This document shows, piece by piece, positions 28,933 to 57,395 of a stretch of 64,000 nucleotides of DNA (within the stretch, counting starts at the first letter, position 1; each line of letters begins with the position of its first letter). The DNA lies in contig JAHJIY010000066.1 of NCBI GenBank assembly GCA_018823175.1, positions 92,570-156,569 of the forward strand. The letters are read 5' to 3'. Below the pieces are notes generated by a model. It did no database searches. It had not been told where the DNA came from and saw nothing but the letters and a program-made list of their open reading frames with translations. The translations under genes and the position numbers were made by a program. This stretch comes from Pseudomonadota bacterium. GTDB taxonomy: Bacteria > Desulfobacterota > Desulfobulbia > Desulfobulbales > JAHJIY01.

Positions 28933-31053
28933 TTATTTGGTTTTCTTGGGATTTATTTCGATGGTTCCCAATGAAGTTATTTTTGTTTTGGTGGTCATTT
29001 CATTATGTGAAATTATCATGATTTGCGGCATGAATCGTTCAACCAGGCGCCGTAGATGGCGGCGGATGATTGGTGAGCAGACAATAATCGGATGGTATCC
29101 TTCAGCCGAGATTTTTTCCACTGATTCCTCAATTGATTCGAGGATTCTTTGGGCAATGTGCGGTTCAAGGGAGAGGAATGTGCCATGATCCGATTGTTGG
29201 ATTGACTCTCTGATCATGTCCTCGATCTGGGTTGACAGGGTCAAAACTGATAGAGTGCCTTCGTTATCGGTGTGTGAACTGATAATTGATCTGGCCAGTT
29301 TCTGGCGGACGAATTCGGTCAGAATTTCCGGGTCTCTGATTGTCCCGGCATGATCGGCCAGGGTCTCGCAGATCGTCAACAGATCCCTGATTGAGATGCG
29401 TTCCCGCAGAAGATTCTGCAATACTTTCTGGACTCCGCCCAGGGTGAGTTGGCCCGGAACCAGCTCCTCAACCACTTTCGGGTTGGTCTTGCTCAGGTTG
29501 TCGAGCAGTTTCTGGGTGTCTTGCCTGCCGAGCAGTTCATCAGCATGACTCTTTAATACTTCGGTCAAATGGGTGGCGACCACGGTTGAAGGATCAACCA
29601 CGGTATAGCCGGAGACCTGGGCCTCATCTTTCTTATCCTCGGTGATCCAGATGGCTGGCAGGTTAAAGGCCGGTTCCTTGGTCGGAATTCCTTCGATTTC
29701 ACGTTTGGCGGTGCCGGAATCCATGGCCAGCAGATAGTCCATCATTAATTCGCCCTGGGCGATTTCCACTCCTTTGAGCATCAGGAGATATTCGTCGGGC
29801 TTAAGTTGCAGATTGTCTCTGACATGCAGCGGCGGAATGATCAACCCCATATCAATGGCGAATTGTCGGCGGATGGCCCTGATCCTTTCGAGTAAATCGC
29901 CCTTCTGACTTTCATCAACCAGAGGGATCAGGCCATAGCCTACCTCAAGTTCGAGAATGTCGAGCGGCAGCAGGGCCTCAACGGTTTCCGGTGATCCGGA
30001 TACCGGTTGCGCGGATTTTTTAAGTTGTTCTTCTTCCGCTGCGGTAGCCTCTTTTTCCTGGGCGTTCTGATTGGAGGCCAGGACGGCAAGGATGCCCATG
30101 CCGATTCCCAAAATCAGAAAAGGGATATGGGGCAGGCCGGGAATCAGGCCAAAAAGAATAATAATGCCGGAAGATACGGCCAGGGCCTGGGGCTGGCTGC
30201 TGAATTGCTTGATGAACTCTTTGCCCATACTGACATCCGAGGCGGCCCGACTGACAATAATACCGGCGGAGGTGGAGATGATCAGGGCCGGAATCTGGGA
30301 AACCAGGCCATCGCCGATGGTCAGCAGGGTATAGGTGATAATGGCCCCTCCGATATCCATGCCCTGGAGAATTACCCCGATAAACAGGCCGCCGATAATG
30401 TTGATTGACATGATCACCAGACTGGCAATGGCCTCGCCACGGACAAATTTACTGGCACCGTCCATCGCCCCATAAAATTCCGATTGGCGGGAGATGTCGG
30501 AACGTCGTTTTTTGGCCTCCTCTTCGTTGACCAGTCCGGCGTTTAAGTCGGCGTCAATGGCCATCTGTTTACCCGGCATGGCATCCAGGGTAAAGCGGGC
30601 CGCAACTTCTGCGATCCGGCCGGAACCTTTAGTGATAACAATAAAGTTAATCAGGACCATAATCAGGAAGATGATCAGACCTACCGCGTAGCTGCCGCCG
30701 ACCACAAAGGTGCCGAAAGATTTGATCACCTGGCCGACCGCCCCTGGTCCCTCATGCCCATGCAACAAGATGAGCCTGGTTGAGGCGACGTTGAGCGAGA
30801 GCCTGAACAGGGTGGTGATCAGTAGCAGGGAGGGAAATGACGAGAAGTCAAGCGGGCGGGTGTTGTACATCGACATCAGCAGGATCAGTAGTCCTATCGT
30901 AATGTTAAGTGAAAGGAGCAGATCAAGCACGATAGTCGGCAACGGGATGATCATCACCATCAGAATGCCGACTACGCCAATCGCCACCAGAAAACTCGAG
31001 GTTTCCAGGTTGAAGCTATTTAATCCGCTGATCGCTTCTGTTTTTTCCGCCAT
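28933..31053 (-). CDS. flhA: Flagellar export apparatus protein FlhA
   Basis: A 706-aa ORF with the conserved FHIPEP region (VITKGSGRIAEVAARFTLDAMPGKQMAIDADL). Confidence 0.98.
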   Translation of the reverse strand: MAEKTEAISGLNSFNLETSSFLVAIGVVGILMVMIIPLPTIVLDLLLSLNITIGLLILLMSMYNTRPLDFSSFPSLLLITTLFRLSLNVASTRLILLHGHEGPGAVGQVIKSFGTFVVGGSYAVGLIIFLIMVLINFIVITKGSGRIAEVAARFTLDAMPGKQMAIDADLNAGLVNEEEAKKRRSDISRQSEFYGAMDGASKFVRGEAIASLVIMSINIIGGLFIGVILQGMDIGGAIITYTLLTIGDGLVSQIPALIISTSAGIIVSRAASDVSMGKEFIKQFSSQPQALAVSSGIIILFGLIPGLPHIPFLILGIGMGILAVLASNQNAQEKEATAAEEEQLKKSAQPVSGSPETVEALLPLDILELEVGYGLIPLVDESQKGDLLERIRAIRRQFAIDMGLIIPPLHVRDNLQLKPDEYLLMLKGVEIAQGELMMDYLLAMDSGTAKREIEGIPTKEPAFNLPAIWITEDKKDEAQVSGYTVVDPSTVVATHLTEVLKSHADELLGRQDTQKLLDNLSKTNPKVVEELVPGQLTLGGVQKVLQNLLRERISIRDLLTICETLADHAGTIRDPEILTEFVRQKLARSIISSHTDNEGTLSVLTLSTQIEDMIRESIQQSDHGTFLSLEPHIAQRILESIEESVEKISAEGYHPIIVCSPIIRRHLRRLVERFMPQIMIISHNEMTTKTKITSLGTIEINPKKTK

Positions 31054-31063
31054 GTTATGCTCG

Positions 31064-31173
31064 GGTTATCAGGGTTAAGGGTTAAGGGTTAAGGTTGAAG
31101 GTTGAAGGTTTAAGGGTTAAGGTTGAAGGCTAAAGGGTTAAGGTTGAAGGTCTAAGGTTTAAGGCTAAAGGTT
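31064..31173. repeat. Tandem heptanucleotide repeat of about 15 units with consensus GKTNAAG (GGTTAAG/GTTGAAG), filling the flhB-flhA spacer
   Basis: Read directly: GGGTTAAG GGTTAAG GGTTAAG GTTGAAG GTTGAAG GTTTAAG GGTTAAG GTTGAAG GCTAAAG GGTTAAG GTTGAAG GTCTAAG GTTTAAG GCTAAAG. It is almost C-free on the plus strand. Confidence 0.9.
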
Positions 31174-31178
31174 GTTCC

Positions 31179-32249
31179 TTAGCCGGTTTTTTTCCGCAGG
31201 CTGTAAACATAGGCCAGAACCTCGGCTACGGCCTGAAACAGCTCTTCGGGGATTGAGTCATTTAGCTCGACGGTCCGATACAGGGCTTGGGCCAGCGGCT
31301 TGTCTTCCAGGATCGGCACGTTGTTTTCCTGGGCGATTTCTTTTATCCGCTGCGCGATGATGCCTGCCCCCTTGGCCACCACCAGCGGCGCGATCATCAT
31401 GGATGGGGCATAACGCAGGGCCACCGCGAAATGGGTCGGGTTGGTGATTACCACGTCGGCCTTAGGGACCTCTTCCATCATTCTTCGACGGGCCATTTCC
31501 ATCTGGATCGACCTGATCCGTCCTTTGACGTGGGGGTCCCCCTCGGTTTGCTTGGCCTCTTCTTTTACTTCCTGCTTGGTCATTCTCATTTTTTCCATGA
31601 ATTGCCAGCGTTGGAAGGCGTAATCGGCGGCGGCCAGCAGTGCCAGGGTCAGGGCGCATTTCAAAAAGATCCAGAATGCGGTGTTGCCCACGAATTGCAA
31701 TATCGGGTAGGCCTCCTGGTCCATGAGGGGCAAAATACCGGCCCTGACTTTATTAATCTCATAATAGGCAATGTAGCCGATGATCATAAGTTTGAGGATC
31801 GACTTGATGGTCTGGGCCAGGGTCTGTTTTGAAAAAAGGTTTTTCAACCCCTGGATCGGATCTATTTTGGAGAGTTTCGGGGTTATCTTCTCGGTGGTGA
31901 ACAGAAAGCCGATCTGGGCGTAATTGGACAACAGGGCGACCACGACAATCACCGCCATCAGCGGACCGGCGATCATGATCGAAAAGAACATGGACTCTTG
32001 GGTCATCTGGTTAATGTTGGCCGGTATTATTTTGATCATGTGTAAATTTCCCAGATAATAGCGCAAAGGATTTAGGAACCCCTGGAGCATGTAATCGCCG
32101 AGGATATACAGGGTCATCAGGCTGGCCAGCAGGACCGCCGCTGACGGCACCTCCATGCTTTTTGCCACATCGCCTTTTTTCCGGGCATCCGCTAATCGTC
32201 GCGGGGTCGGATCTTCGGTTTTTTCCTGGCCGGAGGATTCTTCCGCCAT
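31179..32249 (-). CDS. flhB: Flagellar export apparatus protein FlhB
   Basis: N-terminal EKTEDPTPRRLADARKKG and the autocleavage motif NPTHFAVAL. Confidence 0.97.
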   Translation of the reverse strand: MAEESSGQEKTEDPTPRRLADARKKGDVAKSMEVPSAAVLLASLMTLYILGDYMLQGFLNPLRYYLGNLHMIKIIPANINQMTQESMFFSIMIAGPLMAVIVVVALLSNYAQIGFLFTTEKITPKLSKIDPIQGLKNLFSKQTLAQTIKSILKLMIIGYIAYYEINKVRAGILPLMDQEAYPILQFVGNTAFWIFLKCALTLALLAAADYAFQRWQFMEKMRMTKQEVKEEAKQTEGDPHVKGRIRSIQMEMARRRMMEEVPKADVVITNPTHFAVALRYAPSMMIAPLVVAKGAGIIAQRIKEIAQENNVPILEDKPLAQALYRTVELNDSIPEELFQAVAEVLAYVYSLRKKTG

Positions 32250-37560: not shown

Positions 37561-38241
37561 GTGAATATGCATTGGACTGAACATTTAGGCCACCTATCAA
37601 AATCGTTACTGGCCCAGATTTCCCGGATACGCAACGCTTCAGACCACGGCACAACGATTGGTAATTGTGTTGAGCATGTGCTCCGACGTACAATCTCAAA
37701 TTATATTCCTCGATATTTTGAGGTCGGAACTGGCCAAGTATGCAATATTAATAATAAATTAAGTCCCCAACTCGACATTTTAATACATGACCGTTCTTGT
37801 TTCCCCCCTCTAGCAGTTAACGAAGATGATTCGGTCATTGTTTGCGCTGAGCCTACGAAATCTGTTGTGGAATGCAAAACCGAATGGGACCACAAAACCG
37901 TAGAAAAACACTTTATGCGGTTTACAGAAGTTCAAAATGTTCGCGGTGAACATTTTAAAAACCCAGATAATTCTGCTGGGTACTTAGTTTTTTTAGTGGG
38001 TAGTTGTCCCGCGACAATTCCCGACACTCTTAGTGACCACACAAGATTTGTGGGGATCTATTCTCTAAGCAAAGGTAAAGCTCAACGTAGCCCTATTCAA
38101 ACAGATACATTTGAAATGGAGGCTGGAAATGCTCTTGAAATGTTTCTCCGAGACTTGTTGTTTGATTGCATGAAGAAAGGGCAGACTGAAGCTGGATCAT
38201 TTGAATTGTCGTACGAAACCTTTCAACTATACATGAAATGA
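37561..38241 (+). CDS. PD-(D/E)xK nuclease-fold protein (DUF6602-like)
   Basis: A 226-aa ORF. The motif order is G-N-x-V-E38 (helix), S-P-Q-L-D72-ILIHD, then VV-E104-C-K106, which matches the E...D...ExK restriction-endonuclease-like core and my recollection of the DUF6602 pattern. The start is GTG 37561 or ATG 37567 (AAAGGTG RBS). Confidence 0.6.
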   Translation: MNMHWTEHLGHLSKSLLAQISRIRNASDHGTTIGNCVEHVLRRTISNYIPRYFEVGTGQVCNINNKLSPQLDILIHDRSCFPPLAVNEDDSVIVCAEPTKSVVECKTEWDHKTVEKHFMRFTEVQNVRGEHFKNPDNSAGYLVFLVGSCPATIPDTLSDHTRFVGIYSLSKGKAQRSPIQTDTFEMEAGNALEMFLRDLLFDCMKKGQTEAGSFELSYETFQLYMK

Positions 38242-38273
38242 TAACTATAAAAATTAGATAACGTCTGTGATCA

Positions 38274-39875
38274 ATGATTCTAGATAATTCACTCACGAGC
38301 AAGAGCAGGCAAATCGACAGAGCGACTGTAGCGCAGCTTTTTGATATTCCACTCGGTATCGCTGACGGTCAATATCTGGTATTACGTTGCTATACATCGT
38401 CTCGGCCCGAACGGTTTTTCAACCGAAGCGTGCAAGCAGCCTTCGCAGAATGGCTTGAGGATCTTCATCAAAAAGAAACACAAGCGCTTCGCGAATATTT
38501 AAGAGATCACTTGTCTGAAATCGACAGGGCATTGCTGTTCTTGCATGAGATTAACGTTGAAGATTGGCATGATCAGAAATTTGACAGCTCACAAGACTGG
38601 GAATTTCTGAGGTTTATAGACCGGCGTATTCATAGAACCTATCTGCGTCTCGTGGAAGGTGTACTAACACCCCTTGCTCGTTTACCGGCGCATTTTTCCC
38701 GTCGGGTACGGGGTGCCGGAACGGAAGGGCTGGACATTTATGCCATTAGCGAAGAACTCGCGAATAGTCCCCTTGAAGAGATCACATCTTCTTACCGTCA
38801 TACGATTCGTAACGGGATTGGCCATGGTGGTATTACATATGGACAATTCGAAATTACCTACTGTGATAAGCGCGGCAACGAGGAAACTCTTAGCACGAAC
38901 GAGATCGTGAAGCTTTGTGATGATCTTGTAGATGACTGCAACGGCTTGGTGGCCGCGCTTGCTGTCTTTTACGTGCGCCATCGAGGGGAAGGTTATCCCA
39001 TTCCTGAGGAATTATTGCTCCAAGAATTGCGCGAAGAAACCGTTACTCCATGGTGGGCTATCGACGGTACAATCCGCTCGCGTGTTCCAGCAGGTGATCA
39101 ACTGCTCGTATATGCGCGAACTAGCAGCGCGGACTTTCCAACGATACAGTTCTCGGCTATTCAGACCGGCATTTTAACTGAAGCCTTTGCTCCTGGTTAT
39201 GAACGGTACTTCGTTTCAATCCGTGGAGGTTCCATGGGTAGGGGGTGGGCAGCATTTTATGGAGAACGCCTACGGATTCATCGCGCCGCTGCGGACGACT
39301 TAACGAAATACACAGACGTTTTAGAATCCATCGCGTACCTTCCGTTTAAAAACCGTCCTCAATGGATGCGTCGCATTTGGAATATGTATCAGGCGGTTAA
39401 AATTAATTGGCCTTGCGCCCGTCGTGATTGGTATACCGCACGTGGGATTCCAGAGATCGTCCCCAGAGTTGCGACTGTCCATCGAAACGGTTGGCGTTCT
39501 GTTCTGAAGGGTTCTGTTATTATGCCATGCCTTTCTCCACCACAGATTAGGAGATTTCGGCGCAGGATCATTGACGCCGCGTTAGGCTTCGCTACAGCCA
39601 ATACTCCTTTGGCCCGGCACCTCCCGCTTGGATTCGCGCAGATCTCAGTGTTTTGCCTGGACTATCGTGCTCGGCGGCTAGATAACTTTGGCTTAGGGCC
39701 TGATCTGGTATGTACGGTGCGCTATCAAACAATCAGCCGAATTCAGAGTCCTGATATCATGGGCTCGACAGTCGAAGGTGCTGGCGCTTGGCGAATCGCC
39801 TGGAATCGCGCGTGGCTTGAACGTGAAGGTGTCGCACTGAATATCTCTTCGCCTTGGCGGGTGCTGCGTGCATGA
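38274..39875 (+). CDS. Hypothetical 533-aa protein with no recognisable family and a central RNGIGH (Rx4H, HEPN-like) motif
   Basis: A long uninterrupted ORF 32 bp downstream of the nuclease gene on the same strand. The only motif I can name is R179-N-G-I-G-H184 (nt 38808-38825). There is no P-loop, no TM helix and no signal peptide. Confidence 0.7.
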   Translation: MILDNSLTSKSRQIDRATVAQLFDIPLGIADGQYLVLRCYTSSRPERFFNRSVQAAFAEWLEDLHQKETQALREYLRDHLSEIDRALLFLHEINVEDWHDQKFDSSQDWEFLRFIDRRIHRTYLRLVEGVLTPLARLPAHFSRRVRGAGTEGLDIYAISEELANSPLEEITSSYRHTIRNGIGHGGITYGQFEITYCDKRGNEETLSTNEIVKLCDDLVDDCNGLVAALAVFYVRHRGEGYPIPEELLLQELREETVTPWWAIDGTIRSRVPAGDQLLVYARTSSADFPTIQFSAIQTGILTEAFAPGYERYFVSIRGGSMGRGWAAFYGERLRIHRAAADDLTKYTDVLESIAYLPFKNRPQWMRRIWNMYQAVKINWPCARRDWYTARGIPEIVPRVATVHRNGWRSVLKGSVIMPCLSPPQIRRFRRRIIDAALGFATANTPLARHLPLGFAQISVFCLDYRARRLDNFGLGPDLVCTVRYQTISRIQSPDIMGSTVEGAGAWRIAWNRAWLEREGVALNISSPWRVLRA

Positions 39876-40096
39876 GTAGTCTAATAGTATCTGGGGTCAG
39901 GCTCGCCCCCCCAAGTTAATATAACAAAAACAGGTGCTTTTTGGGCTTAGAAGGCTCTTTTTACCGCCAAAATGAGAACTGTAAGACAAAGCCGGTTATC
40001 TTAGAATGGCTTTTTTGCAATGAAAAAGTGCCCTCTAATCCAGATATAGACGGATTTAAAAGTGTTTTATTGCTCGCTCGGCGCATGCTAAATGCC

Positions 40097-40156
40097 GCCT
40101 AGCAATTCATTTAAGCCGAATCAGCTTCGCGGCTCGGCTTGATTTAGACGTTAGAA
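40097..40156 (+). mobile_element. Integron attC (59-base element) recombination site, aadA-type
   Basis: GCCTAGCAATTCATTTAAGCCGAATCAGCTTCGCGGCTCGGCTTGATTTAGACGTTAGAA. It aligns without gaps over 60 nt to the aadA1 attC as I recall it (GTCTAACAATTCGTTCAAGCCGACGCCGCTTCGCGGCGCGGCTTAACTCAAGCGTTAGAT), with about three quarters of positions identical. It has an R''-like box GCCTAGC, an internal imperfect palindrome AAGCCGA/TCGGCTT and an R' box GTTAGAA. Confidence 0.75.
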
Positions 40157-40178
40157 ATTAAATGGAATTCATTAACCA

Positions 40179-40916
40179 ATGGAAAACTTAAATAAACTAG
40201 CAGTTCTTATCGATGCTGACAATGCTCAACCAAGCATTGTTGATGGTTTGCTTTCCGAGATTGCTAATTACGGAACAGCCAGTGTCAAACGGATTTATGG
40301 AGATTGGACATCACCTGGCTTAAAGGGTTGGAAAGATGTTCTTCTTCAATACTCAATTCAACCTATGCAACAATTCGCTTATACTAAAGGGAAAAACGCA
40401 ACTGACAGTGCAATGATTATTGATGCTATGGATTTATTATACTCAGGTAATTTCAATGGGTTTTGTATAGTATCAAGTGACAGCGATTTCACAAAACTAG
40501 CATCGAGGATTAGAGAGGCAGGGCTTACTGTATATGGGTTTGGCGAGCAGAAAACACCACCAGCTTTTGTGTCGGCATGTGATAAATTTATTTATACTGA
40601 AGTCCTTCGCGCAAAATCTAATGAAAATGAAGCGATACACAAAAAATCAAGCAACGAGCTGAAACAAGATACAAAATTAGTAAATCTATTACGAAATGCA
40701 GTAGAATCATCATCCGATGAAAGTGGCTGGGCGCATCTTGCTCCTGTGGGTAGCAATATTGCCAAACAAGCTCCCGACTTCGATCCGCGTAATTATGGTT
40801 ATGCGAAACTCGGTGAACTTGTATTAGCGACTACTCTTTTTGATGTTGAATCGAGACAGATTGGAGATTCGAAGTCAAAAGTACTTTGTGTCCGTGTTAA
40901 AAAGAAGAATAAATAG
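40179..40916 (+). CDS. NYN-domain (LabA/PIN-like) ribonuclease with a C-terminal OST-HTH/LOTUS domain
   Basis: LAVLIDADNA, NATDSAMIIDAMD and CIVSSDSDFTKLASRIREAGLTVYGFG form the NYN Asp triad. The C-terminal part (GWAHLAPVGSNIAKQAPDFDPRNYGYAKLGELV) is OST-HTH-like. Confidence 0.9.
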   Translation: MENLNKLAVLIDADNAQPSIVDGLLSEIANYGTASVKRIYGDWTSPGLKGWKDVLLQYSIQPMQQFAYTKGKNATDSAMIIDAMDLLYSGNFNGFCIVSSDSDFTKLASRIREAGLTVYGFGEQKTPPAFVSACDKFIYTEVLRAKSNENEAIHKKSSNELKQDTKLVNLLRNAVESSSDESGWAHLAPVGSNIAKQAPDFDPRNYGYAKLGELVLATTLFDVESRQIGDSKSKVLCVRVKKKNK

Positions 40917-55782: not shown

Positions 55783-56808
55783 TTAAAGGGTCTTCTGGTT
55801 GGTTGAGATCGGGGAAATTTTTTGTTTCAACAGGCAGCAGGAGATGCGGTGTTGCGGGTGGCCGGAGTCGTCATAGGTGATGTTGCCTGGTTGCAGCAGT
55901 TTGTTCATCACGCAGCCTTCCGGGATCTCTAAAGTGAACAGTTTGTCCTCGGTTAGTCCCTCGTTGGTCAGGAGTTGGTTGTTCTCTATTCGCATGGAAT
56001 TTAGCGGATAATCTTCGCACAGGGGACAACGGTAGACCCGACCATTTGGAAAGATAAAATAATTGTCCGCGACATTGCCGGCACATTCAAACTTCTCATC
56101 TTTATCCAGGAAGACCTTGGGAAAAGTTACATCAATACCTAATGCGGCCGCATTTTCAGCGGTTTGGGGGATGGCTGTTAACCATTCCTCCGGCGTTAGT
56201 TGTAGATTGTTGCCGTGCTGAACTGATTTGCCGCGTAATCCGATGACCTGAATGAAAAAGCGCTCTACCTTGAGTTTGGCCAGCAGTTTGGGCATCTGTG
56301 CCAGTTGTTCCAGATTCATTTTGCTGACCGTGTAAATAAGACTGATCGAAAACCCCATCGCGGCGGCTTTTTTAATGTTCTCGGTGCAGGTGGCAAATAC
56401 TCCTTCTCCCCGGATCGGATCATTGACTTCGGCACTGGGGCCGTCAAGACTGAAGCTTAAGACTGCGTCATCAGGACTGATCCGGCTCAGCAGGTCGTGG
56501 AACAGAAAGCCATTGGTGTCAACGGTAATTGATTGATAACCCAGCGCCCTGGCTGTTTTTATGCCATGGGCCAGATCCGGGTGCATGGTCGGTTCACCGC
56601 CCAGAAAGATGACGTTGCTCTCTTTGTCCGGATCATGAAACAGACGGAGCCAGTCATCCATGGTCTGACGGGAAACCATGGTGGTGCCGTGCTGGGCCGG
56701 ATTGATATAGCAATGTCGACAGGATAGATTGCAGGCGGTCAGAATATGAAAAAAGATATTGCGTTCGTTGGGCTTGAAACCAACGGTCTTGAGTTGGGTG
56801 GTACTCAA
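55783..56808 (-). CDS. Radical SAM protein with a Cys-rich (SPASM/twitch-like) C-terminal region
   Basis: CNLSCRHCY (CX3CX2C) near the N-terminus, GGEP, and C-terminal cysteines (ECAGN, RCPLCED, EGC, SCC). Confidence 0.85.
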   Translation of the reverse strand: MSTTQLKTVGFKPNERNIFFHILTACNLSCRHCYINPAQHGTTMVSRQTMDDWLRLFHDPDKESNVIFLGGEPTMHPDLAHGIKTARALGYQSITVDTNGFLFHDLLSRISPDDAVLSFSLDGPSAEVNDPIRGEGVFATCTENIKKAAAMGFSISLIYTVSKMNLEQLAQMPKLLAKLKVERFFIQVIGLRGKSVQHGNNLQLTPEEWLTAIPQTAENAAALGIDVTFPKVFLDKDEKFECAGNVADNYFIFPNGRVYRCPLCEDYPLNSMRIENNQLLTNEGLTEDKLFTLEIPEGCVMNKLLQPGNITYDDSGHPQHRISCCLLKQKISPISTNQKTL

Positions 56809-56840
56809 AGTCGTTCCTTTTTATTTGGTAAAGAGAATAA

Positions 56841-56880
56841 AGGTTTAAGGTGTAAGGTTTAAGGCTAAACAGCTAAACAG
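56841..56880. repeat. Short tandem repeat related to the flhB-flhA heptamer array
   Basis: AGGTTTAAG GTGTAAG GTTTAAG GCTAAAC AGCTAAAC AG. It has the same GKTNAAG units, in the same orientation, in the spacer between two co-directional minus-strand genes. Confidence 0.6.
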
Positions 56881-56885
56881 CTTAA

Positions 56886-57395
56886 TCAATCCTGACTTAA
56901 GGTGTATTCGGAAAGCAGACTGTCTCGCCAGTAATCGTTGGCCTGATTGGTGAAGAAGTTTTTGAATAAGCGCAGGCTTTCTTCCCGCATTACATCGGGA
57001 ATGATTTCAACCCGTATATCGCGATAAAGAGGGGTCAGACGGTTCAGGTCAAGATTGGTGCCGCCGCCCATCGCATCCTCATAGGCAAAGACCACTCGGG
57101 TTATATTGTTGAGCAGCAGAGCCGCAAAGCACATCAGGCAAGGTTCCATGGTGGAGTAGACCGTAACTGTACGGCGGTTAAGTTCCGGGTGGTTGGTGAA
57201 CAGGTCCCGCAGGGCAGTCATTTCGGCGTGGTCCATTTCGTTGGCTTTGCCGCTTCGGCTGTTGCTCCGGCGACCGCGGGCGACTACCTTGTTATTGGCC
57301 ACCATGATGCAACCCACCGGGAACTCGCCGGCCATCAGGGCGGTCTCCGCTTCCTGTAAGGCGATGTTCATGAATTTTTCGTGCTGTGCGCGCAT
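56886..57395 (-). CDS. CMP/dCMP-type zinc deaminase (TadA / guanine deaminase-like nucleoside deaminase)
   Basis: HAEMTAL ... PCLMCFAAL (H-A-E and PC-x2-C zinc and catalytic motifs). Confidence 0.85.
   Translation of the reverse strand: MRAQHEKFMNIALQEAETALMAGEFPVGCIMVANNKVVARGRRSNSRSGKANEMDHAEMTALRDLFTNHPELNRRTVTVYSTMEPCLMCFAALLLNNITRVVFAYEDAMGGGTNLDLNRLTPLYRDIRVEIIPDVMREESLRLFKNFFTNQANDYWRDSLLSEYTLSQD

What the first reader, a model, noticed from the sequence alone, without database searches (positions are those of the whole stretch)
31064..31173. About 15 tandem copies of a heptanucleotide (GKTNAAG) fill the entire flhB-flhA spacer.
- The 125-bp gap between the flhB stop and the flhA start is almost wholly a 7-bp periodic array (GGTTAAG, GTTGAAG, GTTTAAG, GCTAAAG).
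- On the transcribed (minus) strand it reads CUUAACC/CUUCAAC. That is a nearly G-free C/U/A tract ending about 10 nt before a weak flhA ribosome-binding region.
- Within-operon microsatellites of this kind are unusual in a highly conserved flagellar export operon.
- Possible roles, all inference: an unstructured standby or S1-binding platform for flhA translation, a length-variable (slippage-prone) spacer, or a protein or sRNA binding array.
- The complementary plus strand is G-rich with GG/GGG runs every 7 nt.
Basis: seen in the sequence. Interest (0 to 1): 0.55.

Follow-up and report, generated by a model that had tools for sequence, protein, structure and literature searches.

The report
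Heptanucleotide simple-sequence repeat between flhB and flhA
A real, lineage-specific array of 14-15 seven-base repeats fills the gap between two flagellar export genes; it belongs to a known class of bacterial heptamer repeats and most likely acts only as a structure-free linker in the mRNA.

Summary
Window 31071-31173 (a degenerate unit extends it to 31064) holds 14.7 tandem heptamers. They read NNNAAGG on the + strand and CCUU+NNN on the transcribed minus strand. They occupy about 100 of the 125 nt between the flhB stop (31179) and the flhA ATG (31053), far above chance.

The source is a single Desulfobulbales-like MAG contig. Its closest relatives (FlhA 75-80% identical, same gene order) have 38-143 nt spacers with no array, so the array is a recent lineage-specific expansion. 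A four-unit sister array at 56840-56864 lies between two unrelated genes in the same orientation and shares an exact 17-mer.

In the mRNA the tract is predicted unpaired. It has no start codon, no Shine-Dalgarno-like motif, and stops in all three frames. In silico it leaves the flhA start region more open than a deletion, an inversion or 60 random inserts.

It matches the known class of prokaryotic heptameric long simple-sequence repeats: between co-directional ORFs, G-rich strand on the non-coding strand just upstream of a gene.

Best reading: a slippage-generated repeat tolerated as a passive unstructured linker. Sequence-specific binding or G-quadruplex roles are not excluded. Copy-number polymorphism could not be tested. 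Interest is low to moderate.

The parts
31071..31173 (-). Heptanucleotide tandem array. It has 14 full units reading CCUU+NNN on the mRNA strand (NNN = UAG, AAA, AGA, CAA, AAC). A degenerate unit extends it to 31064. A higher-order 21-nt periodicity is present, and the three flhA-proximal units are identical (CUUAACC x3).
   Evidence: TRF period 7 x14.7 and period 21 x4.8; register layout; 15 pattern hits against 0.01 expected.
31054..31178 (-). Complete flhB-flhA intergenic spacer (125 nt). On the sense strand it is 6% G, has no ATG/GTG/TTG, has no AAGG/AGGA/GGAG, and has stop codons in all three frames.
31179..32249 (-). flhB (356 aa), upstream gene of the junction.
   Evidence: TIGR00328 FlhB, 425 bits against a cutoff of 349
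28933..31053 (-). flhA (706 aa), downstream gene whose initiation region follows the array.
   Evidence: TIGR01398 FlhA, 930 bits against a cutoff of 772
31163..31184 (-). Only predicted hairpin in the spacer. GGCUAAGG (which includes the flhB UAA stop) pairs with the first repeat unit CUUUAGCC across a 6-nt loop. No U-tail follows, so it is not terminator-like.
31060..31062 (-). GAG, the only Shine-Dalgarno-like element, 6 nt upstream of the flhA AUG (a weak ribosome-binding site).
31063..31088 (+). Single canonical G-quadruplex motif (G3 N1-7)x4 on the G-rich strand. This strand is the template, not the mRNA strand. The motif lies 10-35 nt upstream of the flhA start.
   Evidence: Regex and ViennaRNA gquad fold
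56840..56864 (-). Sister mini-array (AAGGTTT AAGGTGT AAGGTTT AAGGCTA on the + strand). It lies between a cytidine-deaminase-fold gene (56886-57395) and a radical SAM gene (55783-56808), both on the minus strand. Its orientation is the same as the main array. It shares the exact 17-mer TTTAGCCTTAAACCTTA (sense) with the main array.

Best explanation
The feature is a lineage-specific long simple-sequence repeat with a 7-nt unit.

Origin (inferred):
- It arose by slipped-strand expansion, in single units and in 21-nt triple units.
- It expanded inside what is ancestrally a roughly 40-nt, G-poor, Shine-Dalgarno-less linker between flhB and flhA.
- The likely seed is a CTTTAGCC motif near the flhB stop.

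Transcription (inferred from operon organisation):
- It is co-transcribed inside the fliL...fliR-flhB-flhA-flhF-flhG operon.

Properties in the transcribed orientation (shown by computation):
- The roughly 100-nt CCUUNNN tract cannot base-pair.
- It has no start codon and no Shine-Dalgarno-like sequence.
- It stops all three frames.

Proposed role (inferred):
- It behaves as a passive, structure-free insulator or standby tract.
- It separates the flhA initiation region from flhB coding sequence and keeps that region accessible.
- The opposite orientation would put 14 AAGG motifs and stable structure into the mRNA.
- The array is therefore tolerated, perhaps mildly favoured, but not required.
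- Copy-number slippage could tune spacer length, but it cannot switch a reading frame.
For: The array is real and well above chance.

Absence from relatives:
- All 7 closest relatives share the gene order and have no heptamer array. Their spacers are 38, 40, 41, 48, 87 and 143 nt.
- Those spacers are mostly A/C-rich, G-poor and without a Shine-Dalgarno sequence.
- The differing lineage-specific insertions show that this junction is plastic.

Signs of ongoing slippage and block duplication:
- Degenerate units lie at the flhB end and three identical units at the flhA end.
- A 21-nt super-period is present.

Evidence that the motif is not flagellum-specific:
- A second, short array with an identical 17-mer head sits in an unrelated operon in the same orientation.

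RNA behaviour:
- The sense RNA has no pairs across the array. Mean pairing probability is 0.21 in the array against 0.57-0.59 in the flanking coding RNA.
- Opening energy of the flhA region (-20 to +14) is 5.07 kcal/mol for the native sequence.
- It is 11.24 with the array cut to one unit and 14.22 with the array inverted.
- It is 8.43 +/- 2.08 for 60 random genomic inserts, none of which is as low as native.

Negative scans:
- No Rfam family, sigma-70-like promoter or terminator lies in the region.

Literature:
- Heptamers are the commonest long simple-sequence-repeat unit in prokaryotes and are attributed to polymerase slippage (Mrazek 2007, as summarised in PMC4679880).
- G-rich heptamers in Xanthomonas and Nostoc sit between aligned ORFs, with the G-rich strand on the non-coding strand within 50 bp upstream of an ORF (PMC4692102). 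This array has that geometry.
Against: - Relatives have flhA opening energies of 5.9-13.9 kcal/mol with no array. The accessibility gain is therefore not needed, and the effect may be nil.
- All variation among units sits in 3 of the 7 positions, with CCUU/AAGG invariant in 14 of 14 units. That could reflect selection on a motif rather than neutral slippage. Because units were copied in blocks, only about 6 independent changes are implied, so the pattern is only marginally non-random.
- The shared 17-mer head of the two arrays hints at copying between loci rather than independent slippage.
- No read, strain or transcript data were available. Slippage, co-transcription and any expression effect are all inferred.
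Confidence: 0.6

Rival explanations
1. The array is a sequence-specific binding platform in the mRNA. Each CCUUNNN unit would be bound by a single-strand RNA-binding protein such as ribosomal protein S1, a cold-shock protein that covers about 7 nt, or an unknown factor. The array would then actively recruit ribosomes to flhA or repress it. This could help set the high FlhA:FlhB ratio the export gate needs (about 9:1, from established structural knowledge).
For: - The CCUU core is invariant in 14 of 14 units while NNN varies.
- The sister array conserves the same core and orientation.
- The tract is single-stranded, so it is accessible.
- flhA lacks a real Shine-Dalgarno sequence.
- A similar proposal exists for TAACTGA heptamers directly upstream of start codons in Beggiatoaceae (PMC4679880).
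Against: - The array is not conserved in any relative.
- Only two arrays were found in about 70 kb of this genome.
- AAGGNTN arrays in other metagenome contigs occur in both orientations relative to genes. Among co-directional pairs, 15 have AAGG on the coding strand and 9 on the non-coding strand.
- No candidate protein was identified.
- CsrA-type binding is excluded, because there is no GGA in the array on the sense strand.
Confidence: 0.12
2. The array acts at the DNA level through non-B structure. The G-rich template strand would fold into a G-quadruplex (and the C-rich strand into an i-motif), modulating RNA polymerase passage into flhA or replication. This is the role proposed for G-rich heptamer repeats in Xanthomonas and Nostoc.
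For: - One canonical (G3 N1-7)x4 motif lies at 31063-31088, and there are 19 overlapping two-tetrad motifs on the + strand. ViennaRNA with the G-quadruplex option places a three-layer quadruplex there.
- The position and strand match the preference reported in PMC4692102.
Against: - Only 6 GGG runs occur in the spacer; most units carry GG only.
- The one canonical motif needs a GGG from outside the regular array.
- Two-tetrad quadruplexes are weak.
- Function was not established even in the organisms where the class was described (PMC4692102).
- The sister array has GG runs only.
Confidence: 0.1
3. The array is a phase-variable 'volume control' of the Haemophilus influenzae hmw type. A transcribed pyrimidine-rich heptamer repeat would pair with a G-rich partner into a long hairpin processed by RNase III, and repeat number would set expression.
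For: - It has the same unit length and similar copy number (14), and it is G-poor on the transcribed strand upstream of a start codon.
- hmw expression is inversely proportional to (ATCTTTC)n length (PMC12721329).
Against: - No G-rich partner exists. In 165-nt and 625-nt folds the array stays unpaired apart from one 8-bp hairpin.
- The gene is an internal operon gene of a core flagellar export apparatus, not a surface antigen.
- No strain series is available to show variation.
Confidence: 0.04
4. The array is an assembly artefact of a short-read metagenome assembly.
For: - The source is a MAG contig (GCA_018812655.1, JAHJDI010000031.1) with no independent assembly in the collections.
Against: - The units are imperfect and the longest internal exact repeat is 20 nt, so the path is unique for k above 20.
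- The whole 103-nt array fits inside a single 150-nt read.
- Both flanks are intact conserved gene ends.
- Comparable arrays are common in independent metagenome contigs.
Confidence: 0.03

Closest known systems
G-rich heptameric intergenic simple-sequence repeats of Xanthomonas (GGGAATC) and Nostoc (GGGGAYT), Rehm et al. 2015, PMC4692102
   Same: - The unit is 7 nt with a G-run in each unit.
- Units are variable and imperfect, and copy numbers reach the tens.
- Location is between co-directional ORFs.
- The G-rich strand is on the non-coding strand within 50 bp upstream of the next ORF.
- Neighbouring genes have no common function.
- The repeats vary between close relatives.
   Different: - The unit sequence differs (GGTTAAG/GTTGAAG).
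- Most units carry GG rather than GGG, so quadruplex potential is weak.
- Genome-wide abundance is unknown here.
- The host is a Desulfobulbales-like MAG.
TAACTGA direct repeats upstream of start codons in marine Beggiatoaceae, cyanobacteria and Bacteroidetes, MacGregor 2015, PMC4679880
   Same: - Heptamer direct repeats lie in the transcribed orientation just upstream of start codons that lack canonical ribosome-binding sites.
- Each unit carries stop codons, so all frames are closed.
- A translational role (S1, Csp) has been proposed but not demonstrated.
   Different: - The unit is different.
- Those sets are mostly 2-6 copies and abut or overlap the ribosome-binding site; here 14 copies end about 20 nt before the AUG.
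- Those genomes have 169 sets; only 2 are seen here in about 70 kb.
Long simple-sequence repeats of prokaryotes, 5-11 nt class (Mrazek et al. 2007, as summarised in PMC4679880 and PMC4692102); cyanobacterial STRR heptamers (own knowledge)
   Same: - Tandem head-to-tail heptamers are longer than chance and intergenic.
- They are sporadically distributed among lineages.
- They are attributed to polymerase slippage.
   Different: None in kind. This is one more instance, in a phylum and an operon position not specifically reported.
Haemophilus influenzae hmw1A/hmw2A 5'-UTR (ATCTTTC)n repeat, PMC12721329
   Same: - A transcribed, G-poor heptamer repeat of about 14 units lies upstream of a coding sequence.
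- It is the one experimentally dissected heptamer repeat that controls expression.
   Different: - The hmw repeat forms a long hairpin with a G-rich arm cleaved by RNase III; this array is predicted unpaired.
- hmw is a phase-variable adhesin with a promoter directly upstream; flhA is an internal operon gene.

Membership tests
Prokaryotic long simple-sequence repeat, 5-11 nt unit class | Head-to-tail tandem copies of a 5-11 nt unit | tested here: met
   TRF period 7, 14.7 copies, 81% matches, no indels
Prokaryotic long simple-sequence repeat, 5-11 nt unit class | Tract longer than expected by chance in its own sequence background | tested here: met
   15 pattern matches against 0.01 expected in 100 dinucleotide shuffles. 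It is the only array with more than 4 copies in 64 kb.
Prokaryotic long simple-sequence repeat, 5-11 nt unit class | Copy-number instability between strains or reads (slippage) | not testable with these tools
   No second genome or contig of this species exists in the collections. The best FlhA relative is 80% identical, and exact FlhB and FliQ occur only on this contig.
G-quadruplex-forming G-rich heptamer repeats (Rehm 2015) | Located between aligned ORFs, with the G-rich strand on the non-coding strand within 50 bp upstream of an ORF | tested here: met
   flhB and flhA are both on the minus strand, the G-rich strand is +, and the array ends about 20 nt from the flhA ATG.
G-quadruplex-forming G-rich heptamer repeats (Rehm 2015) | At least four consecutive G3 tracts, one per unit | tested here: inconclusive
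   One (G3 N1-7)x4 match lies at 31063-31088, but it uses a flanking GGG. Only 6 GGG runs occur in the spacer and the other units have GG.
G-quadruplex-forming G-rich heptamer repeats (Rehm 2015) | Many copies spread over the genome | tested here: inconclusive
   Two arrays were found in the window plus 5.7 kb of extra contig.
TAACTGA start-codon-proximal repeats (MacGregor 2015) | Unit TAACTGA | tested here: not met
   Units are CUUAACC, CUUCAAC, CUUAAAC, CUUUAGC and CUUAGAC.
TAACTGA start-codon-proximal repeats (MacGregor 2015) | Forward orientation immediately upstream of a start codon that lacks a canonical ribosome-binding site | tested here: met
   The array is on the sense strand. The last unit ends 20 nt before the AUG, and only GAG stands as a Shine-Dalgarno element.
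hmw-type phase-variable 5'-UTR heptamer repeat | Repeat pairs with a G-rich arm into a long RNase III hairpin | tested here: not met
   The array is unpaired in the 165-nt fold. In the 625-nt fold its mean pairing probability is 0.21 against 0.57-0.59 in the flanks.
hmw-type phase-variable 5'-UTR heptamer repeat | Expression inversely related to repeat number | not testable with these tools
   No strains, reads or expression data are available.
Rfam RNA families / CsrA-binding leader | Match to a curated covariance model; GGA motifs on the transcript | tested here: not met
   There are no Rfam matches at E<=1 in 30500-31700. The only GGA on the sense spacer lies directly after the stop codon, outside the array.

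The most novel reading that the evidence does not exclude
CCUUNNN heptamer arrays may be a dispersed, copied element family in this uncultured Desulfobulbales lineage, as suggested by the shared 17-mer head and the same orientation at two unrelated operon junctions. In this reading they act as operon-internal translation insulators or ribosome-recruiting platforms recognised through the invariant CCUU core. At flhB-flhA they would raise FlhA output relative to FlhB. That would give the long-unexplained prokaryotic heptamer repeats a concrete post-transcriptional function.
Probability: 0.12. Interest if true: 0.6.

Novelty: new member of a known kind. Interest (0 to 1): 0.3.

Why it matters
Heptameric repeats are the most common long simple-sequence repeats in prokaryotes, yet the papers that describe them still call their function unresolved (PMC4692102, PMC4679880).

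This instance is cleanly bounded. It lies between two essential, well-understood genes whose products are needed in very different amounts. Close relatives preserve the ancestral repeat-free linker. That makes it a convenient natural test case for whether such arrays merely persist where an unstructured, start-codon-free spacer is harmless, or whether they tune translation of the downstream gene.

On present evidence it is an ordinary member of the class, not a new mechanism.

Tried and rejected
Copy-number polymorphism:
- The nearest FlhA is 80% identical.
- Exact FlhB and FliQ occur only on the same NCBI contig. No comparison was possible.

Extending the genome:
- A NusA fragment look-up failed because the gene is cut by the window edge.
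- An RbfA look-up added 5.7 kb with no further array.

Scans of the region:
- No Rfam match at E<=1.
- No sigma-70-like promoter or intrinsic terminator.
- By eye, CTGATAAC before flhA resembles a sigma-28 -10 element, but the -35 match is poor. This was not pursued.

Motif-based ideas rejected:
- CsrA or Hfq (ARN)n binding: there is no GGA in the array on the sense strand and no triplet periodicity.
- An hmw-like hairpin: not formed.
- A small ORF through the array: stops occur in all frames on the sense strand. TTAA also puts TAA in every + strand unit.

Searches for related copies:
- The 17-mer head has 5 exact hits in viral contigs. None lies in a repeat array, and the number is about what chance predicts by my estimate.
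- The metagenome scan for AAGGNTN x4 returned more than 120 contigs. The set is heterogeneous. It includes telomere-like TTTAGGG arrays at contig ends (L103, L157).
- Array orientation relative to genes is mixed in that set, so it gives no rule that explains this array.

Full report
OBSERVATION

The array is real.
- Tandem Repeats Finder reports a period-7 array of 14.7 copies at 31071-31173 (81% matches, no indels, score 108). The same tract also scores as a period-21 array of 4.8 copies (score 123).
- Read on the transcribed minus strand, the 125-nt spacer is GGAACAAC, then 14 heptamers, then CUGAUAACCCGAGCAUAAC, then AUG.
- The 14 heptamers are CUUUAGC, CUUAAAC, CUUAGAC, CUUCAAC, CUUAACC, CUUUAGC, CUUCAAC, CUUAACC, CUUAAAC, CUUCAAC, CUUCAAC and CUUAACC x3.
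- CCUU (AAGG on the + strand) is invariant in every unit. All variation lies in the other three positions.
- The sense array has 4 G in 110 nt.
- A three-unit pattern with up to one mismatch occurs 15 times in the window against 0.01 expected from shuffles. Thirteen of those hits are here and two are at 56840-56864.
- The flanking genes are flhB (31179-32249) and flhA (28933-31053). fliR lies upstream and flhF and a MinD-like flhG lie downstream. All are on the minus strand and all score above the NCBIfam equivalog cut-offs where such cut-offs apply.
- The longest exact internal repeat is 20 nt, so the array is not an ambiguous assembly path.

SOURCE AND RELATIVES

- The window is positions 92570-156569 of NCBI contig JAHJDI010000031.1 (158,764 bp, assembly GCA_018812655.1), a metagenome-assembled genome.
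- The nearest FlhA proteins among 5.8 billion clusters are only 73-80% identical. They come from Desulfobulbaceae and Desulfurivibrionaceae MAGs, Thiovibrio and Desulfurivibrio. A species-level genome scan gave 75% at best.
- Exact FlhB and FliQ are found only on this contig. Strain-level copy-number comparison is therefore impossible with the data at hand.
- Seven relatives keep the same gene order (fliL-M-N-O-P-Q-R-flhB-flhA-flhF-flhG-fliA-cheY...amt-glnB-glnD).
- Their flhB-flhA spacers are 38 nt (L204/L205), 40 nt (L202), 41 nt (L001), 48 nt (L203), 87 nt (L208) and 143 nt (L207, Thiovibrio).
- None contains a heptamer array. No period-7 array occurs anywhere in about 130 kb of their flanks.
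- The short spacers are A/C-rich and G-poor (10-19% G), and most lack a Shine-Dalgarno sequence.
- The two longer spacers carry their own unrelated insertions. In Thiovibrio I read it as an inverted repeat.
- Across 74 more distant flhB-flhA junctions, 64 have an estimated gap under 100 nt, and many overlap.
- The junction is therefore normally short but evolutionarily plastic, and this lineage's insertion is the heptamer array.
- L001 shares the 9-mer CTTTAGCCT with the first unit of the array. That is a possible ancestral seed. The match is weak and was noticed post hoc.

ANATOMY AND HISTORY (INFERENCE)

- Units are degenerate at the flhB end and identical (CUUAACC x3) at the flhA end.
- The triplet CAA-AAC-X recurs three times, which gives the 21-nt super-period.
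- This is the pattern expected from repeated slippage of single units and three-unit blocks, with point mutation in between.

A SISTER ARRAY

- At 56840-56864 four units (AAGGTTT AAGGTGT AAGGTTT AAGGCTA on the + strand) lie between a cytidine/deoxycytidylate-deaminase-fold gene and a radical SAM gene, both on the minus strand.
- The orientation relative to transcription is the same as in the main array.
- It starts 12 nt after the upstream TAA; the main array starts 8 nt after its TAA.
- The two arrays share the exact sense 17-mer TTTAGCCTTAAACCTTA.
- The motif is therefore not flagellum-specific, and the two arrays may be related by copying.
- An extra 5.7 kb of the contig held no further array.

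WHAT THE TRANSCRIPT LOOKS LIKE

- No sigma-70-like promoter, no intrinsic terminator and no Rfam family lies in or around the spacer. Co-transcription with flhB is therefore the default, by inference.
- The sense RNA is predicted unpaired across the whole array. The only helix is an 8-bp hairpin pairing GGCUAAGG (which includes the flhB stop) with the first unit.
- In a 625-nt context the mean pairing probability is 0.21 in the array against 0.57-0.59 in the adjacent coding RNA.
- The sense spacer has no AUG/GUG/UUG and no AAGG/AGGA/GGAG. It has stops in all three frames, and GAG 6 nt before the AUG is the only Shine-Dalgarno-like element.
- The energy needed to open the flhA initiation region (-20 to +14) is 5.07 kcal/mol for the native sequence.
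- It is 11.24 kcal/mol if the array is cut to one unit and 14.22 if the array is inverted.
- It is 8.43 +/- 2.08 kcal/mol for 60 random 98-mers from the window, none as low as native.
- Relatives range from 5.85 to 13.85 kcal/mol.
- The array therefore gives a very open start site but is clearly not required for one.
- FlhA is needed in about nine copies per export gate and FlhB in one (established structural knowledge). An independent, open initiation site for flhA is thus plausible biology. It is not shown here.

THE OTHER STRAND

- The + strand is the template strand and carries GG or GGG every 7 nt.
- One canonical (G3 N1-7)x4 motif lies at 31063-31088, using a GGG just outside the regular array. 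Nineteen overlapping two-tetrad motifs also occur. ViennaRNA with the G-quadruplex option places a three-layer quadruplex there.
- Folded as an ordinary strand, the + strand is less structured than its shuffles (z = +2.8).

COMPARISON WITH WHAT IS KNOWN

- Heptanucleotides are reported as the most abundant unit among long simple-sequence repeats in many prokaryotic genomes, attributed to polymerase slippage (Mrazek et al. 2007, as summarised in PMC4679880 and PMC4692102).
- Rehm et al. (PMC4692102) describe G-rich heptamers (GGGAATC, GGGGAYT) in Xanthomonas and Nostoc.
  - They are over-represented between aligned ORFs.
  - They vary between close relatives, are not tied to any gene class, and have unresolved function.
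  - The present array has exactly that geometry, but most of its units carry GG rather than GGG.
- MacGregor (PMC4679880) describes 169 sets of TAACTGA repeats in a Beggiatoaceae genome. Most lie in forward orientation directly upstream of start codons lacking ribosome-binding sites, with S1, Csp or CsrA-like proteins proposed as binders.
- Geobacter metallireducens has families of four or five tandem heptamers (PMC2700814).
- The one dissected case is the H. influenzae hmw (ATCTTTC)n 5'-UTR repeat. It works through a long hairpin with a G-rich arm cleaved by RNase III (PMC12721329). That defining feature is absent here.
  - Many arrays fill the whole gap between co-directional ORFs, for example L099, L092 and L123.
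  - Some use the very units seen here: GGGTTAA in L138, CTTTAGC in L094 and CCTTCAA in L092/L123.
  - Orientation relative to genes is mixed: co-directional with AAGG on the coding strand 15, co-directional with AAGG on the non-coding strand 9, convergent 8, divergent 5. Gene calls were crude ORF-based calls.
  - Some hits are eukaryote-type telomere repeats at contig ends (L103, L157).

VERDICT

- The thing is a heptanucleotide long simple-sequence repeat: a new member of a known, functionally unresolved class, at an unusual place inside a core flagellar operon.
- Most likely (about 0.6) it arose by slippage and persists because, in this orientation, it preserves what the ancestral linker already was: G-poor, unstructured, and free of start codons and Shine-Dalgarno-like sequences. 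Its effect is at most a passive, mild gain in flhA start-site accessibility.
- Sequence-specific RNA binding (about 0.12) and template-strand G-quadruplex effects (about 0.10) remain open.
- An hmw-type hairpin switch (about 0.04) and an assembly artefact (about 0.03) are unlikely.
- Interest is low to moderate.

Noticed in passing
window 56840-56882: A second, four-unit AAGG-heptamer array is directly followed by 2.4 copies of an 8-mer (GCTAAACA). It lies between a deaminase-fold gene and a radical SAM gene on the minus strand. It shares an exact 17-mer with the flhB-flhA array.
   Followed up: partly
L019 5430-5580 (uncultured deltaproteobacterium MAG, contig CAWBSC010000023.1): The flhB-flhA gap is estimated at about 548 nt. 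It holds a degenerate CAGGGTT heptamer array (8.6 copies) and, about 70 nt later, its reverse complement (GAACCCC/CCCTGAA units). Together these form a potential long hairpin. This is an independent case of heptamer repeats at the same operon junction.
   Followed up: partly
L207 9807-9950 (Thiovibrio sp. JS02 chromosome): The flhB-flhA spacer is about 143 nt and appears to carry an imperfect inverted repeat (GCAGAATGAAAAC ... TTTTTCATTCATG). The flhA start region has the highest predicted opening energy of the set (13.85 kcal/mol).
   Followed up: no
L099 2135-2229; L092 354-441; L123 2498-2557; L086 4928-5010: Metagenome contigs in which AAGGTTC/AAGGTTG/AAGGCTG heptamer arrays of 8-13 units fill the entire gap between co-directional ORFs, leaving flanks of 10 nt or less. 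In L086 the array is followed by an inverted copy, forming a hairpin.
   Followed up: partly
window 37561-40916 (= L081 1334-4683): Directly upstream of fliL lie three genes: DUF6602, a 533-aa protein with no Pfam hit, and an NYN/OST-HTH protein. The relatives have DUF362, SDR and (in some) aconitase genes there instead. This may be an inserted island.
   Followed up: no
L103 939-1075; L157 893-1029; L148 899-1119: Long TTTAGGG-type and AAGGTTT arrays (20-32 units) lie at the ends of short metagenome contigs. They look like eukaryotic (plant or algal type) telomere or satellite repeats rather than bacterial intergenic arrays.
   Followed up: no
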